This document shows positions 12,798-51,872 of a stretch of 64,000 bases of DNA, one piece after another. Position numbers and translations under genes: made by a program. The DNA comes from Octopus vulgaris (lineage: Eukaryota), in contig OX597821.1 in assembly GCA_951406725.2 (NCBI GenBank), positions 83,576,001 through 83,640,000 on the forward strand. The letters run 5' to 3'. Position 1 is the stretch's first letter. The number at the start of each line of letters is the position of its first letter. The notes beneath the pieces are model-generated. The model was given only the letters and a program-made list of their open reading frames with translations, had not been told where the DNA came from and did not search any database.

Positions 12798-13239
12798 AGC
12801 TTAAACGCTAAAGGGTTAAAACACATGAAATATTAAACGATGTCATACCTTTCCAAGACAATAGTGCTAACAAGGAAATGAACCAACTGACTCCTGCATT
12901 TAGTCTGCTGCTTATTTTATTGATGTCTGTTTATGAAATGGCTAAGTTCACCCGAGTTACATCTCTAAAAAAGCAATCTCGTTTTCTACACATTTTATTC
13001 TCTACACATAATGTATTGACTTTGACACATCATAGAGCATGAACACAGAAACACACACACATACACACACACACACACATATCACATCATCAACATCATC
13101 ATCATTTAATATCCATTTTGCATGCTGGCATAATTTGGATGGTTTATCAGGATCAGGGGAACAACAGGGTTGCACTGTACTTAATGTCAACTTTGGCATG
13201 GTTACACACACTCACACATATATACTTATATATATAAAC

Positions 13240-13296
<57 letters not shown>

Positions 13297-13395
13297 GGAT
13301 AAACACATAAATGTGAAACAAGGTGGAAAAGAGTACTCAAATACCAGTGGTAGAGTAATATGCTTTATTTTAAGCAGCAGAAAAATCAACAAAAT

Positions 13396-13431
13396 CTGTT
13401 ACTCTGAGTTTCTGTGCCGTTCATCAGACAG
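13396..13431 (-). ncRNA. Minimal type I hammerhead ribozyme motif (antisense twin, stem II 2 nt shorter)
   Basis: Reverse complement reads ctgt-CTGATGA-acggcaca-GAAA-ctc a gag-TA-acag. Confidence 0.55.
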
Positions 13432-13453
13432 TTTTGCTCCATTCTAGCAAAAA

Positions 13454-13491
13454 CTGTCTGATGAACGGCAACGAGAAACTCAGAGTAACAG
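13454..13491 (+). ncRNA. Minimal type I hammerhead ribozyme motif
   Basis: ctgt-CTGATGA-acg gcaa cga-GAAA-ctc a gag-TA-acag: stem I ctgt/acag, intact core, short stem II with GCAA loop, palindromic stem III, GUA cleavage triplet. Confidence 0.65.
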
Positions 13492-13543
13492 ATTTTGTTG
13501 ATTTTTCTGCTGCTTAAAATAAATATATATATATATATACATA

Positions 13544-13669
<126 letters not shown>

Positions 13670-13964
13670 AATATATACATATATATGTACATAGACATAT
13701 ATAAATATTATATCTTTTATCCATTACTTGTTTCACTTGTTAGACTGCACCCATGCTGGGGCACCACCTTGAAGAATATTTGGCTGCACAAATCCCTGCA
13801 CTTTTTTAAGCCTGGTCCTAAATTAATCAGCCTTTTTTGCTGAACTGGTAAGTAATGGGAATGTAAACAAACCAAACACCAGTTGTCAAGCTGTGATGGG
13901 GGACTAACAGAAACACACACACATACACATGTACACATATATATATATATATATAATATATATC

Positions 13965-16289: not shown

Positions 16290-16455
16290 CATGCATACAT
16301 ACATACATACATACATACATAGACAAACAGACAGACAGACAGACAGACATATACATACATACATACATACATACATACATACATACATACATACATACAT
16401 ACATACATACATACATACATACATACATACATAGGCAGACAGACAGACAGATAGA
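16180..16455. repeat. Compound (GACA)n/(TACA)n tetranucleotide microsatellite
   Basis: Directly visible. Confidence 0.95.
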
Positions 16456-16742
16456 TAGATCAAAACAGTTTGATTCAGAATCCTTGGTACTCTGAGTTTC
16501 AAGGCCATGGTTAGTCTTCAGCCATTGGAATCTGAATGATAGATCGATTGAAGAGAGTCAATGCTTACTACTGGAGCACCAAGAATTCAGAATCAAATTG
16601 TTTTGATCTATATATTATGCGTCCAGCAATAAACATTGACTCTCTTTCATTAACCTCTCATTCAGACTCCAATGGCCGAAGACTAAGTACAAGCTTGAAG
16701 CTCAGAGTACCGAGAATTCTGAATCAAACTGTTTTGATCTAT
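16456..16742. mobile_element. Foldback MITE with long TIRs and an extra internal terminus
   Basis: TAGATCAAAACAGTTTGATTCAGAAT... at left, ...ATTCTGAATCAAACTGTTTTGATCTA at right; arms pair over ~120 bp; a third terminus copy at ~16578-16612; TA flanks. Confidence 0.75.
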
Positions 16743-17252
16743 ACATGTAACTCCCAATAAATGTGTTGAGTACCCTTCTTTTGTGTGTCTACTCACTCAT
16801 ACATATATACAACATACATATCAGTCCCATTGCAAGATACTGTGTGCAAGTGTCTCCCACTATAACCCTGGACAGGCCAAAACCTTGTGAACGGATTTGA
16901 TAGACAGAATCAGAAAGAAGACCATCGAACACATGCATGTGGGGAAGGGCGTATGTGTGTGTGTGCCTGAATGTATAATATGTATGTGTGTCTGAGAGTC
17001 ATTTGCCTGCAGTCCACTGTGAAAGCATGTCTGGGCTGTTTGTTTGATAAACTGTGAGGTTACAACCTTACTTAGAAACAGGTGTGAGTTGGTGACATAA
17101 TTTGGTAACAAGACATAGGAAACTTTGTCCCAGTATGCTCTTGCCTCATCTAAGCAAGCATGGAAAAGTAAATATTAAAACAACGACGATGATGATGATA
17201 TACACATACACGCACACACTTCTATACATGGATATACCTCTCTAAATAAAAA

Positions 17253-19999: not shown

Positions 20000-20711
20000 C
20001 AGGGTGGTGCAAAAGTCTGGGCCCATAGAGAAATGACGAAAAAGTATTTCTTATCTTAAACATAATTTTGATCATTTAATTATCATGTCATGTCGAATAC
20101 TATCCAAGGATTATGGTGTAGTTGGCCATAAGGGGAAGTACGATAATTGGTCCTCATTTCTTCTCAAACACACTAACAGGTGAGTCATACCATCATTTAC
20201 TAAAAACATTCCTTGTGCCTTGCCTAGATGACGTACCATTAGCAATTTGAAGAGATATGTGGTTTCAACAGGATGTGTCTCCGCCACATTATACGAAAGA
20301 TAAGAAGTCTTTTGGACAATACATTTCCAAGAAAATAGATTGGACGGTCAAGGACCGGTTGAATGGCCACCAAGATTGACATTTCCAAGAAAATGGATTG
20401 GACGGTCAAGGACCGGTTGAATGGCCACCAAGATCGCCGGATTTCAGTCAGATTTTTTTCATATGGGGACATCTTAAATCAGTGGTTTATGCTAACAGAC
20501 CGAGAATATTACAAGCACTAAAAGATAACATCATACAAGAAATTGAAACCATATGAGGGAATAACTCTATACTCAGAAATGTGCAAAGATCATGTGCCTC
20601 TGGAGTAAGAAAGTGTTTGGAAGAAGGTGGAAATGAGTTCAAACACTTATTATAAACCATAAATTGAAGTATAATAAATTGCTTATGGGTCCAAATTTTT
20701 GCACCACCCTG
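20000..20711 (+). mobile_element. Internally deleted Tc1/mariner-superfamily DNA transposon with transposase remnant
   Basis: 28-bp TIRs CAGGGTGGTGCAAAAGTCTGGGCCCATA / TATGGGTCCAAATTTTTGCACCACCCTG; TA on the left; frameshifted motifs WFQQD, EWPPRSPD, FFIWGHLKSVVY; internal ~58-bp tandem duplication. Confidence 0.85.
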
Positions 20712-30689: not shown

Positions 30690-31814
30690 TTGGTAATGGA
30701 AGAATTGGTGACGCACATCCTCGATGATAGTGATGCTGTTGACATCGTTTTATTGGACTTTGCCAAAGCTTTTGACTCGGTAAACCACCGCCTATTACTT
30801 GTCAAGCTTCAAGCATATAGTTTCCATCCGGATATTGTACGATGGGTTGGTGCCTTCCTCTCAGATCGCTCCTTCCAAGTCCAAGTTAATGGTTCGCGGT
30901 CCGACGTCTCCAGTGTGGGCAGTGGCGTGCCTCAGGGTTCAGTGCTTGGGCCCTTATTGTTCTTAGTCTTCATAAATGACTTGCCCGACGACCTCACGCA
31001 ACACACCCTTCTATTTGCCGACGATATCAAACTGGTTGCTCCTCGCGGTGATATAGAGGATCTTCGTCGATGCCTCCACCAAATTTGGAAGTGGTCTAAC
31101 AAATGGGACCTGTGTCTGAACATGTCAAAGTGCTGTCATCTGCCTGTTGGCTCTCCTCCTGCAACTCAACTTGATTTCAAGCCGGGTCGTCTGCTGCTGG
31201 AGAGGACCGATCAGGTAAAGGACCTGGGTATCTTGGTGGATTCCTCCTTTTCGCCTTCGGCCCAGTGCGTCCATGCCACCAACAAAGCACGCGGAATTCT
31301 GTTCTTGATTCGACGGTCATTTGGAATGCTCACAGCAGCCATATTCCTACCACTCTATGTCACGCTGGTGAGACCCATATTGGAGTACGGGATTCAAGCC
31401 TCTTTTCCTTATCTCCTCAAAGACATACAGCATCTCGAAAGAGTCCAGAAGCTGGCTACCCGCATGGTTCATGGTCTCAAAAATTTGTCTTATGAAGAAA
31501 GGCTGAGGACGCTCGACCTTTATTCTCTAGAAAAACGACGACGCCATGGTGATCTCATTCTCGCTCACAACATCATAAGCAGAAAGTGTAACCTCTCGAA
31601 AGAGCTGTTCTTCACTCCTCCTCCAGAGCGTCGCCTGCGGGGTCATTCCGAAAAGCTCTATCTGCGACGATTTCATCTCAATCGAAGGAGAGGAGCTTTC
31701 TCCGTCCGGGTTGCGGATCCGTGGAACAAGCTGCCAGACGAGATGGTGAAGATGCCGACGACCGCTTTGTTCAAAGCCTCCCTTGACCTCAAGTGGCCTG
31801 AACTCTTTACATGA
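30690..31814 (+). CDS. Non-LTR reverse transcriptase, C-terminal part of LINE ORF2 (no endonuclease, no true start)
   Basis: 374-aa open frame with LDFAKAFDSVNH, SGVPQGSVLGPLLFLVFINDL, LFADDIK, KDLGI, LYVTLVRPILEY, LERVQKLATR, LEKRR. Confidence 0.92.
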   Translation: MVMEELVTHILDDSDAVDIVLLDFAKAFDSVNHRLLLVKLQAYSFHPDIVRWVGAFLSDRSFQVQVNGSRSDVSSVGSGVPQGSVLGPLLFLVFINDLPDDLTQHTLLFADDIKLVAPRGDIEDLRRCLHQIWKWSNKWDLCLNMSKCCHLPVGSPPATQLDFKPGRLLLERTDQVKDLGILVDSSFSPSAQCVHATNKARGILFLIRRSFGMLTAAIFLPLYVTLVRPILEYGIQASFPYLLKDIQHLERVQKLATRMVHGLKNLSYEERLRTLDLYSLEKRRRHGDLILAHNIISRKCNLSKELFFTPPPERRLRGHSEKLYLRRFHLNRRRGAFSVRVADPWNKLPDEMVKMPTTALFKASLDLKWPELFT

Positions 31815-48418: not shown

Positions 48419-48835
48419 AAGGCGGCGAGCTGCCAGATACGTTAGCGTGCCGGGCGAAATGCTTAGCGGTATTTCGTCTGTCGTTACGTTCTGAGTTCAA
48501 ATACCCCGGAGGTCGACTTTGCCTTTCATCCTTTCGGGGTTGATAAATTAAGTACCAGTTACGAACTAGGGTCCATGTAATCGACTTAATACCAATGTCT
48601 GTCCTTGTTTGTCCCCTCTATGTTTAGCCCCTTGTGGGTAATAAAGAAATAGGTATTTCGTCCGTCTTTACGTTCTGAGTTCAAATTCCTCCGAGGTCGA
48701 CTTTGCCTTTCATCCTTTCAGGGTCGATAAATAAAGTACCAGTTTCGCGCTGGTGTCGATGTAATCGACTTAATCCCTTTGTTTGTCCTTGTTTGTCCCC
48801 TCTATGTTTAGCCCCTTGTGTGCAGTAAAGAAATA
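48419..48835 (+). mobile_element. SINE family B head-to-tail dimer (second unit 5'-truncated)
   Basis: Two successive gtatttcgtc...gtcgactttgcctttcatcc...tttagccccttgtg...aaagaaata units. Confidence 0.85.
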
Positions 48836-51424: not shown

Positions 51425-51872
51425 TTTCTTTCTTTTACACGTTTCAGTCATTTGATTGCGACCATGCTAGAGAGCACTGCCTTAAAGGGTTTTTTTTAGA
51501 AGAAATCAACCTGAGGACTTATTCTTTGTAAGCCAAGTACTTATTCTATGGTACTCTCTTGCCGGACCGCTAATGTTACGGGGGCACAAACACAACAACA
51601 TCGGTTGTCAAGCGAAGGTGGGGGTGGGGTGGGGCACAAACACAACAACATCGGTTGTCAAGCGAAGGTGGGGGTGGGGTGGGGCACAAACACAGACAGA
51701 CACACACATATAAGACGGGCTTCTTTCAGTTTCCGTCTACCAAATCCAATCACAAAGCTTTATTCAGCCCGATGTTATTGTAAGAGACACTTGCCCAAGG
51801 TGCCACGCAGTGGGACTGAACCGGAACCATGTGGTTAGGATGCGAGCTTCTTAACACAGCCACGCCTGCCCC
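51425..51872 (-). mobile_element. SINE family A containing a perfect 50-bp tandem duplication (51581-51694)
   Basis: ggggcacaaacacaacaacatcggttgtcaagcgaaggtgggggtggggt x2 plus a partial unit. Confidence 0.8.

What the first reader, a model, noticed from the sequence alone, without database searches (positions are those of the whole stretch)
13294..13523. Double-headed hammerhead ribozyme cassette: one hammerhead on each strand of a long inverted repeat
Seen: a ~160-bp near-perfect palindrome embedded in (TA)n. The + arm reads ctgt-CTGATGA-acggcaacga-GAAACTCAGAGTA-acag, with all catalytic core nucleotides, stem I, a self-complementary stem III (ACTC-A-GAGT) and a GUA site after 13487. The - arm encodes the same motif with a 2-nt shorter stem II. 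Established: minimal type I hammerheads with palindromic stem III mark Penelope-like element LTRs and retrozymes and often cleave as dimers; inverted partial LTRs are typical of PLE insertions. Inference: this is a small non-autonomous ribozyme-bearing retroelement, so a transcript from either strand carries a hammerhead. In the host pre-mRNA the hairpin would compete with the ribozyme fold and is a candidate ADAR substrate. The stem II closing pair is A-A rather than canonical R-Y, so activity is uncertain.
Basis: partly seen in the sequence, partly recalled or inferred. Interest (0 to 1): 0.8.

Follow-up and report, generated by a model that had tools for sequence, protein, structure and literature searches.

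The report
Head-to-head Penelope retrotransposon stub with hammerheads
This 230-base palindrome is one of hundreds of back-to-back end fragments of a Penelope-like retrotransposon whose intact copies lie elsewhere in the genome; its hairpin is predicted to keep both ribozymes from folding, and the point where such fragments stop likely marks the start of the transposon's RNA.

Summary
In detail: a 160-bp inverted repeat in (TA)n with a type I hammerhead motif on each strand (the minus-arm stem II is broken by a 2-nt deletion). It is not a separate non-autonomous element. Both arms are the 3' pseudo-LTR of a 3.35-kb Hydra-clade Penelope-like element with an intact 727-aa RT + GIY-YIG-type ORF. 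The genome holds 3,758 exact ribozyme motifs and 729 short head-to-head pairs. Short and long copies share haplotypes, and no tandem arrays were seen. Inverted pLTRs with hammerheads are published. The hairpin (-116 kcal/mol) is predicted to bury both ribozymes. The less ordinary part is statistical: 26 of 73 arms stop 10-20 nt upstream of the core and only 1 of 47 in the next 20 nt. 40 of 41 pairs carry exactly one tail, and both arms share alleles. This fits two primings on one RNA that starts near an initiator-like A (13441), a strong-stop-like by-product. That mechanism is inferred (about 45%).

The parts
13218..13294 (.). (TA)n target microsatellite, left flank
13294..13363 (-). PLE 'tail' (about +72 to +139, C3 = 0), on this arm only; in full-length copies it abuts the ORF leader
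13364..13438 (-). left arm: 3' pLTR of the Hydra-clade element, 5' end at about -8 to -12, with a 1-nt and a 2-nt deletion
13396..13431 (-). hammerhead motif, minus arm (C3 13427, GUA ends 13400); stem II broken
13436..13441 (.). head-to-head junction (T 13438 shared by both arms); A 13441 is position -17, the A of an initiator-like YYANWYY match (motif recalled)
   Evidence: sequence against L063
13438..13523 (+). right arm: 3' pLTR from -20 to about +70, no tail
13454..13491 (+). hammerhead motif, plus arm (C3 13458, predicted cut after 13487), identical to the family's main form
13524..13713 (.). (TA)n target microsatellite, right flank

Best explanation
The 230 bp are two cut-down 3' terminal repeats of a Hydra-clade Penelope-like retrotransposon joined head to head in (TA)n; they likely arose when the element's enzyme copied the short front end of one RNA twice and the two copies were joined, and the resulting hairpin is predicted to keep both hammerheads from folding. 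Shown: the parent is a 3.35-kb unit with an intact RT-endonuclease ORF; hundreds of such pairs exist; nearly all have one tailed and one tail-less arm; the arms share alleles; their 5' ends pile up at -13 to -19 and then stop. Inferred: the endonuclease nicks both strands of (TA)n. RT primes internally at two fixed sites (+72 and +139/142), as shown in vitro for another PLE (PMC11167929). Both cDNAs run through the uncleaved hammerhead to the RNA's 5' end near -17, likely a transcription start at an initiator. The two cDNA 3' ends are trimmed and anneal through 1-7 nt of microhomology. The product has no ORF and is likely a dead end. Confidence in the identity is about 0.95, in the two-priming origin about 0.65, in the transcription-start reading of the stop about 0.45.
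For: Parent: L063 unit, 727-aa ORF; a second intact ORF in L065 is 98.9% identical; best fold match is telomerase RT, E 1e-9; RWK, DKT, YRDD, GVVY/YTG, CxxC, CxH motifs present. Counts: 3,758 motifs, 729 short pairs, 355 more in older subfamilies, 70 tail-to-ORF junctions. 3' ends: 49 of 100 at +72 and 45 of 100 at +139 to +142. 5' ends of 100 position-sampled arms: 26 of 73 at risk end at -10..-20, 1 of 47 at -21..-40 (Fisher p 4e-6). Genome-wide 1,605 sites reach -22 against 3,758 with the core. None of the 100 arms ends at the cut site +30, the nearest two at +34. One tail in 40 of 41 position-sampled pairs; the tail-less arm reaches further 5' in 18, the tailed arm in 15, equal in 7, so often neither arm is contained in the other, as in the window copy. 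Arm alleles agree in 69 of 72 and 71 of 72 pairs, expected 0.65-0.66. The -17 end also occurs in solo copies joined to (TA)n (34 of 100 listed by my count) and in older subfamilies where the CTAG palindrome is TTAA. The only YYANWYY match between -75 and +72 has its A at -17.
Against: In 30 of the 70 copies with a tail-to-ORF junction, 0 of the 24 upstream pLTRs that pass the hammerhead stop at -10..-20 (p 3e-4 against 26 of 73). Full-length copies are therefore not made from an RNA that starts at -17; the model needs a second template pool (tandem read-through or circular RNA). The initiator motif is weak (5 matches in 290 nt), and I saw no conserved TATA or DPE match by eye. No RNA 5' end was observed: only contigs were available. 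The two arms of one insertion are not independent, so the p values are too small. The survival sample is one 82-Mb stretch of one chromosome. Allele agreement could also come from gene conversion between arms. The second hammerhead family in the window shows no such clear stop in 30 similarity-picked loci. The ORF has no Pfam hit of its own, and its linker reads CxFx5C, not CxCx5C.
Confidence: 0.7

Rival explanations
1. Same parent element, but the palindrome forms by self-priming on an antisense RNA or by snap-back of a single cDNA (the antisense self-priming idea of PMC3846280); -17 is then the 3' end of an antisense transcript.
For: Many junctions are perfect palindromes; arms share alleles; head-to-head palindromic junctions are read this way in PMC3846280.
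Against: A fold-back copy must be contained in its template, yet the tail-less arm reaches further 5' in 18 of 40 pairs and in the window copy. Solo copies also end at -17.
Confidence: 0.12
2. The stop is an RT stall or RNA processing site just upstream of the folded, protein-bound hammerhead, not a transcription start.
For: The stop lies 2-7 nt outside the extended stem I (-12); PLE protein assists hammerhead folding in vitro (PMC11167929).
Against: RT passed this site in 24 of 24 upstream pLTRs that reach it. After copying 3' to 5' through the ribozyme the structure is already unwound.
Confidence: 0.15
3. A distinct non-autonomous SINE- or retrozyme-like family: the 230-bp unit is itself transcribed and re-inserted.
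For: High copy number, fixed 3' ends, some junctions recur. Solo tailed copies starting at -17 could keep an internal promoter.
Against: Junctions are varied, and the commonest one occurs on both alleles. Short and long copies share the main haplotypes, 39 vs 49 and 20 vs 11. No head-to-tail arrays of the short unit at the locus.
Confidence: 0.08
4. Longer inverted repeats collapsed after insertion by central deletion, leaving short palindromes.
For: Long inverted insertions are common in this family; palindrome centres are unstable (recalled).
Against: Does not explain a sharp outer limit at -19, nor solo copies ending at -17. Short and long copies differ about equally from the column yardstick, 1.2% vs 0.9%.
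Confidence: 0.05

Closest known systems
Hydra clade of C-terminal EN+ Penelope-like elements (Craig et al. 2021, PMC8557442), incl. Hydra-1_Obim and Hydra-2_Amil
   Same: Single ORF with RWK and DKT motifs, C-terminal GIY-YIG-type domain, CxxC/CxH, (TA)n targeting, hammerhead in the pLTR. The Hydra-2_Amil hammerhead has the same 4-bp stem I and the same palindromic stem III.
   Different: Unit 3.35 kb (published ones mostly under 3 kb); linker CxFx5C; stem II only 2 bp. The hammerhead and, by eye, the protein differ from Hydra-1_Obim, so this is another family.
[quoted passage not shown]
   Same: Type I, palindromic stem III, dimer fold expected; that paper already notes pairs on opposite strands about 100-700 bp apart.
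   Different: Here the pairs are only about 20-60 bp apart and form one hairpin; no G10.1-C11.1 pair.
Inverted pLTR plus optional tail (PMC3846280; PMC8557442 Fig. 2 legend)
   Same: Head-to-head pLTRs, palindromic junction, tail on one end.
   Different: No ORF between or beside the arms; tail about 70 nt rather than 30-40; a fixed 5' stop was not described in the passages read.
PAc Poseidon element in vitro (Frangieh et al. 2024, PMC11167929)
   Same: Two internal RT start sites flank the tail; both DNA strands are nicked and extended; uncleaved RNA is the substrate.
   Different: Other clade; that work did not address head-to-head products in the parts read.
Non-LTR retrozymes (bioRxiv 10.64898/2026.07.22.740005)
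   Same: Small, non-coding, PLE-derived, type I hammerhead.
   Different: Retrozymes are head-to-tail tandem arrays; this is a dispersed inverted pair.

Membership tests
Penelope-like element (EN+) | Telomerase-like RT in a single ORF | tested here: met
   727-aa ORF in L063; model pLDDT 92, best Foldseek match TERT E 1.1e-9
Penelope-like element (EN+) | C-terminal GIY-YIG endonuclease | tested here: inconclusive
   GVVY..YTG, R/H, E and N motifs present and the region aligns (E 1e-12) to the part of P0002 that passes Pfam GIY-YIG; no direct Pfam hit; domain-only model unusable
Penelope-like element (EN+) | pLTR in partial tandem, inverted copies, tail at one end | tested here: met
Penelope-like element (EN+) | Hammerhead in the pLTR | tested here: met
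   3 of 3 metagenome relatives also carry one with different, paired stems
Hydra clade | RWK motif and DKG changed to DKT | tested here: met
   RWK at 53, DKT at 129
Hydra clade | CxCX5C linker | tested here: inconclusive
   This family reads CxFx5C; 115 of 120 homologues match a CxCx(3-6)C pattern
Hydra clade | CxxC and CxH around the conserved E and N | tested here: met
   CxxC at 683, CxH at 711
Hydra clade | Insertion into (TA)n | tested here: met
   86 of 100 sampled arms are followed by TA repeats
Hydra clade | Placement inside the clade on an RT tree | not tested
   No tree was built; similarity to published Hydra proteins was judged by eye
Type I hammerhead ribozyme | Core nucleotides and stems I-III | tested here: met
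   Plus arm; stem II reduced to 2 bp with A.A closing. Minus arm lacks stem II
Type I hammerhead ribozyme | Covariation of stems | tested here: met
   Across families and relatives: stems I and III change and stay paired (table). No compensatory change seen within the young family
Type I hammerhead ribozyme | Self-cleavage | not testable with these tools
   Needs an assay; 0 of 100 arms end at the cut site
Non-LTR retrozyme | Head-to-tail tandem units, each with a hammerhead | tested here: not met
   Single inverted pair at the locus; listed genome hits are dispersed, inverted, or about 3.35 kb apart
Non-LTR retrozyme | Own lineage separate from the autonomous element | tested here: not met
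   Haplotypes shared with long and ORF-bearing copies
Non-LTR retrozyme | Circular RNA | not testable with these tools
   Only contigs of runs guessed to be RNA

The most novel reading that the evidence does not exclude
Hundreds of these palindromes are a genomic record of a Penelope 'strong-stop' step: RT primes at two internal sites in the 5' pLTR of the capped mRNA, runs off at the transcription start 17 nt before the hammerhead, and a dimeric enzyme joins the two cDNAs head to head. Full-length copies come from a second template, tandem or ribozyme-circularised RNA, that has no such end. The by-product silences its own ribozyme and seeds over a thousand long RNA hairpins.
Probability: 0.4. 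Interest if true: 0.62.

Novelty: new member of a known kind. Interest (0 to 1): 0.36.

Why it matters
The locus itself is ordinary debris of a young retrotransposon. The family matters more. How Penelope-like elements make their inverted and tandem structures is an open question (PMC8557442, PMC11167929). Here a young family with intact ORFs and over 1,000 near-identical minimal products gives exact start, stop and joining positions that can be rebuilt in vitro and checked by cap mapping. The palindromes are also a ready set of long perfect hairpins for RNA editing or small-RNA studies, if transcribed.

Tried and rejected
Rfam at E<=10 gave microRNA-like hairpin matches only, all below gathering scores, no hammerhead family. 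Pfam: 0 families for the ORF, 0 for 5 of 7 homologues. PDB sequence searches: nothing significant. VIA search covered only the RT part, residues 19-495; the single-sequence model of the C-terminal domain had pLDDT 42 and was not searched. Sequencing runs: no RNA holder listed on record; contigs of 4 runs guessed to be RNA cover 29-30 of 30 bins of the full element, show no intron joint, and cannot show ends, strand or editing. A 3' splice site at the TTCTAG just upstream of stem I was considered; arms extend 4-9 nt past it, so it does not define the stop. An extra cap-templated base at -18 was looked for; it cannot be told from microhomology with the other arm or with (TA)n. The peaks at 199 and 746-762 are alignment breaks at indels, not truncations. 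The MAFFT alignment of hammerheads misplaced the second family, so pairs were tabulated by anchors instead. Earlier findings of this scan: none. Lunse et al. (PMC5785218) was not held. Searches for a published strong-stop or fixed 5' stop in PLEs and for octopus + Penelope + hammerhead listed none that says so; subscription papers, Repbase/Dfam entries and bioRxiv supplements could not be seen and may hold this family.

Full report
Observation. The window has a 160-bp inverted repeat at 13364-13523, 92% complementary, preceded by 70 unique bases and flanked by (AT)n arrays. Each strand carries a type I hammerhead motif. On the plus arm C3 is at 13458 and the GUA ends at 13487; stem I has 4 bp plus a 7-bp extension, stem II is A.A followed by 2 bp and a GCAA loop, and stem III is a 4-bp palindrome around one base. 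On the minus arm (C3 13427) a 2-nt deletion removes stem II. Rfam finds no hammerhead family here. Positions below count from C3 = 0.

It is a repeat. An exact 32-mer of the motif occurs 3,758 times in the 2.8-Gb genome with 0 control hits; a relaxed pattern gives 9,377. Short head-to-head pairs number 729 for this subfamily and 355 for older ones. From its repeats and size I take the genome to be an octopus; that is recall and inference, no call names it.

The parent. Motif pairs about 3.35 kb apart led to full-length copies. Of 12 stretches fetched, L063 holds a 3,355-bp unit with an open 727-aa frame, and L065 a second one 98.9% identical. The model (pLDDT 92) matches telomerase RT best. 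The protein has RWK, DKT, YRDD, GVVY..YTG, CxxC and CxH motifs, the features given for the Hydra clade in PMC8557442 (section read); the linker is CxFx5C instead of CxCx5C. The GIY-YIG call rests on motifs and on alignment to a homologue's Pfam-positive stretch; the ORF has no Pfam hit itself. 1,765 homologues were found among 8,000 candidates scored. The window's arms match this element's pLTR at 94-98%, and no ORF remnant lies in the window. 86 of 100 sampled arms are followed by TA repeats. 70 sites carry the tail-to-ORF junction.

The ribozyme. Stems I and III change and stay paired between this family, a second family in the window and 3 of 3 metagenome relatives. Position 11.1 is A, G, U or C in different subfamilies while 10.1 stays A. 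A mismatch at this place is common in the clade: 15 of 25 families in supplementary file S2 of PMC8557442 by my count. An isolated arm has the monomer fold with probability 8e-5; two free arms cofold into a double hammerhead at -24.0 against 2 x -10.9 kcal/mol. In the palindrome the hairpin is -116 kcal/mol and forcing stem I costs about 61 kcal/mol on either strand. Because the arms point outwards, a read-through transcript in either direction makes the antisense arm first. Cleavage from this locus is therefore predicted not to occur. None of 100 arms ends at the cut site (+30), in line with uncleaved RNA being the substrate in PMC11167929.

How the short pairs form. 3' ends fall at two sites: 49 of 100 at +72 and 45 of 100 at +139 to +142. 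Of 41 position-sampled short pairs, 40 have exactly one tail; in the larger set of 72, which includes hits picked by likeness to the window copy, 70 do. The tail-less arm reaches further 5' in 18, the tailed arm in 15, equal in 7. In the window copy each arm holds bases that the other lacks, which a simple fold-back cannot give. The arms agree at polymorphic sites in 69 of 72 and 71 of 72 pairs against 0.65-0.66 expected, while rare variants are shared once and single-armed 30 times. This points to one source RNA or locus per insertion, or to gene conversion. Most junctions overlap by 1-7 nt. The commonest junction occurs on both alleles, and short and long copies share the main haplotypes, so the pairs arise again and again from the autonomous element.

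The stop. For the first 100 arms by position on one chromosome, anchored at their 3' end, the loss per base rises from 0.003 downstream of the core to 0.032 at -10..-20 (26 of 73) and falls to 0.001 beyond (1 of 47 at -21..-40; 43 arms go past -140). Genome-wide, 1,605 sites reach -22. 243 sites end exactly at -17 by pattern; of the 100 listed, 34 by my count are solo copies joined to (TA)n. Older subfamilies with a different local sequence show junctions ending at the same A. That A is the only initiator-like match between -75 and +72 (motif recalled, and weak: 5 matches in 290 nt). Penelope of D. virilis has an internal TATA-less promoter in its pLTR (PMC2377424, passages).

Against the simple reading. 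In 30 of the 70 copies with a tail-to-ORF junction, 0 of 24 upstream pLTRs that pass the hammerhead stop at -10..-20; 6 stop earlier. So the site is not an intrinsic block, and full-length copies do not come from an RNA starting at -17. I infer two template pools: a short-leader mRNA that yields only stubs, and tandem or circular RNA that yields long copies. No RNA end was observed. The four runs laid are contigs guessed to be RNA; they cover 29-30 of 30 bins of the element but cannot show ends or strand. The p values treat the two arms of a pair as independent and are too small. A second hammerhead family shows no clear stop in 30 similarity-picked loci.

Comparison with print. Hammerheads in pLTRs and opposite-strand pairs are in PMC4209133 (parts 1-2 of 4 read). 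Inverted pLTRs with a tail on one end are in PMC8557442 (passages, one section, supplement searches and part 2 of 59) and PMC3846280 (passages and Discussion), which proposes antisense self-priming. Two internal RT starts and extension of both strands are in PMC11167929 (parts 1-2 of 4). Retrozymes as tandem PLE derivatives: bioRxiv 10.64898/2026.07.22.740005 (part 1 of 5 and passages; supplements closed). PMC6765202 and PMC13282606 were seen as passages; the latter lists recently active Penelope families in an octopus and has no occurrence of 'hammerhead' in its main text. Searches listed no paper on a fixed 5' stop in PLE stubs; subscription papers and repeat databases were not searchable.

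Verdict. Real feature, known kind: a dead-end inverted stub of a young Hydra-clade Penelope-like family. The family-wide stop at about -17 with one tail per pair is the part worth following. Interest 0.36.

Noticed in passing
window 16455-16760: A second, older hammerhead-bearing family as a head-to-head pair (motifs near 16521 on the minus strand and near 16700 on the plus strand), with a 3-bp stem I plus long extension and the same palindromic stem III; 602 first-look candidates in the genome. Likely another PLE pLTR; no parent ORF was sought.
   Followed up: partly
window 30690-31811 (+): 374-aa open stretch of a LINE-type reverse transcriptase (family not determined).
   Followed up: no
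window 48468-48835, 20321-20434, 51581-51694: Two-copy tandem repeats of 184, 58 and 50 bp; the 184- and 50-bp units look like known SINE-type repeats of cephalopods (recalled).
   Followed up: no
L063 519 (run X5): One contig has a loose end that I recall as a template-switch adapter, attached 2 nt from the predicted cut site but in antisense orientation. Single contig; suggests that run is cDNA, nothing more.
   Followed up: no
L001, L010, L021, L023, L026 (stem II): Small indels recur in stem II in arms of short palindromes; could be hairpin instability, sequencing error, or selection by likeness to the query.
   Followed up: no
L017, L023, L030, L041, L049, L195, L202: Copies of different subfamilies or families sit within a few hundred bases to about 1.4 kb of each other in shared (TA)n tracts, suggesting repeated insertion into the same microsatellites.
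   Followed up: no
subfamilies: Older subfamilies have C (or G) at core position U4 and U or G at 11.1; the window's subfamily has canonical U4 with A at 11.1.
   Followed up: partly
L248 265 and 3024: A metagenome contig with a complete relative: ORF flanked by two direct pLTR hammerheads and ending in (TA)n.
   Followed up: partly
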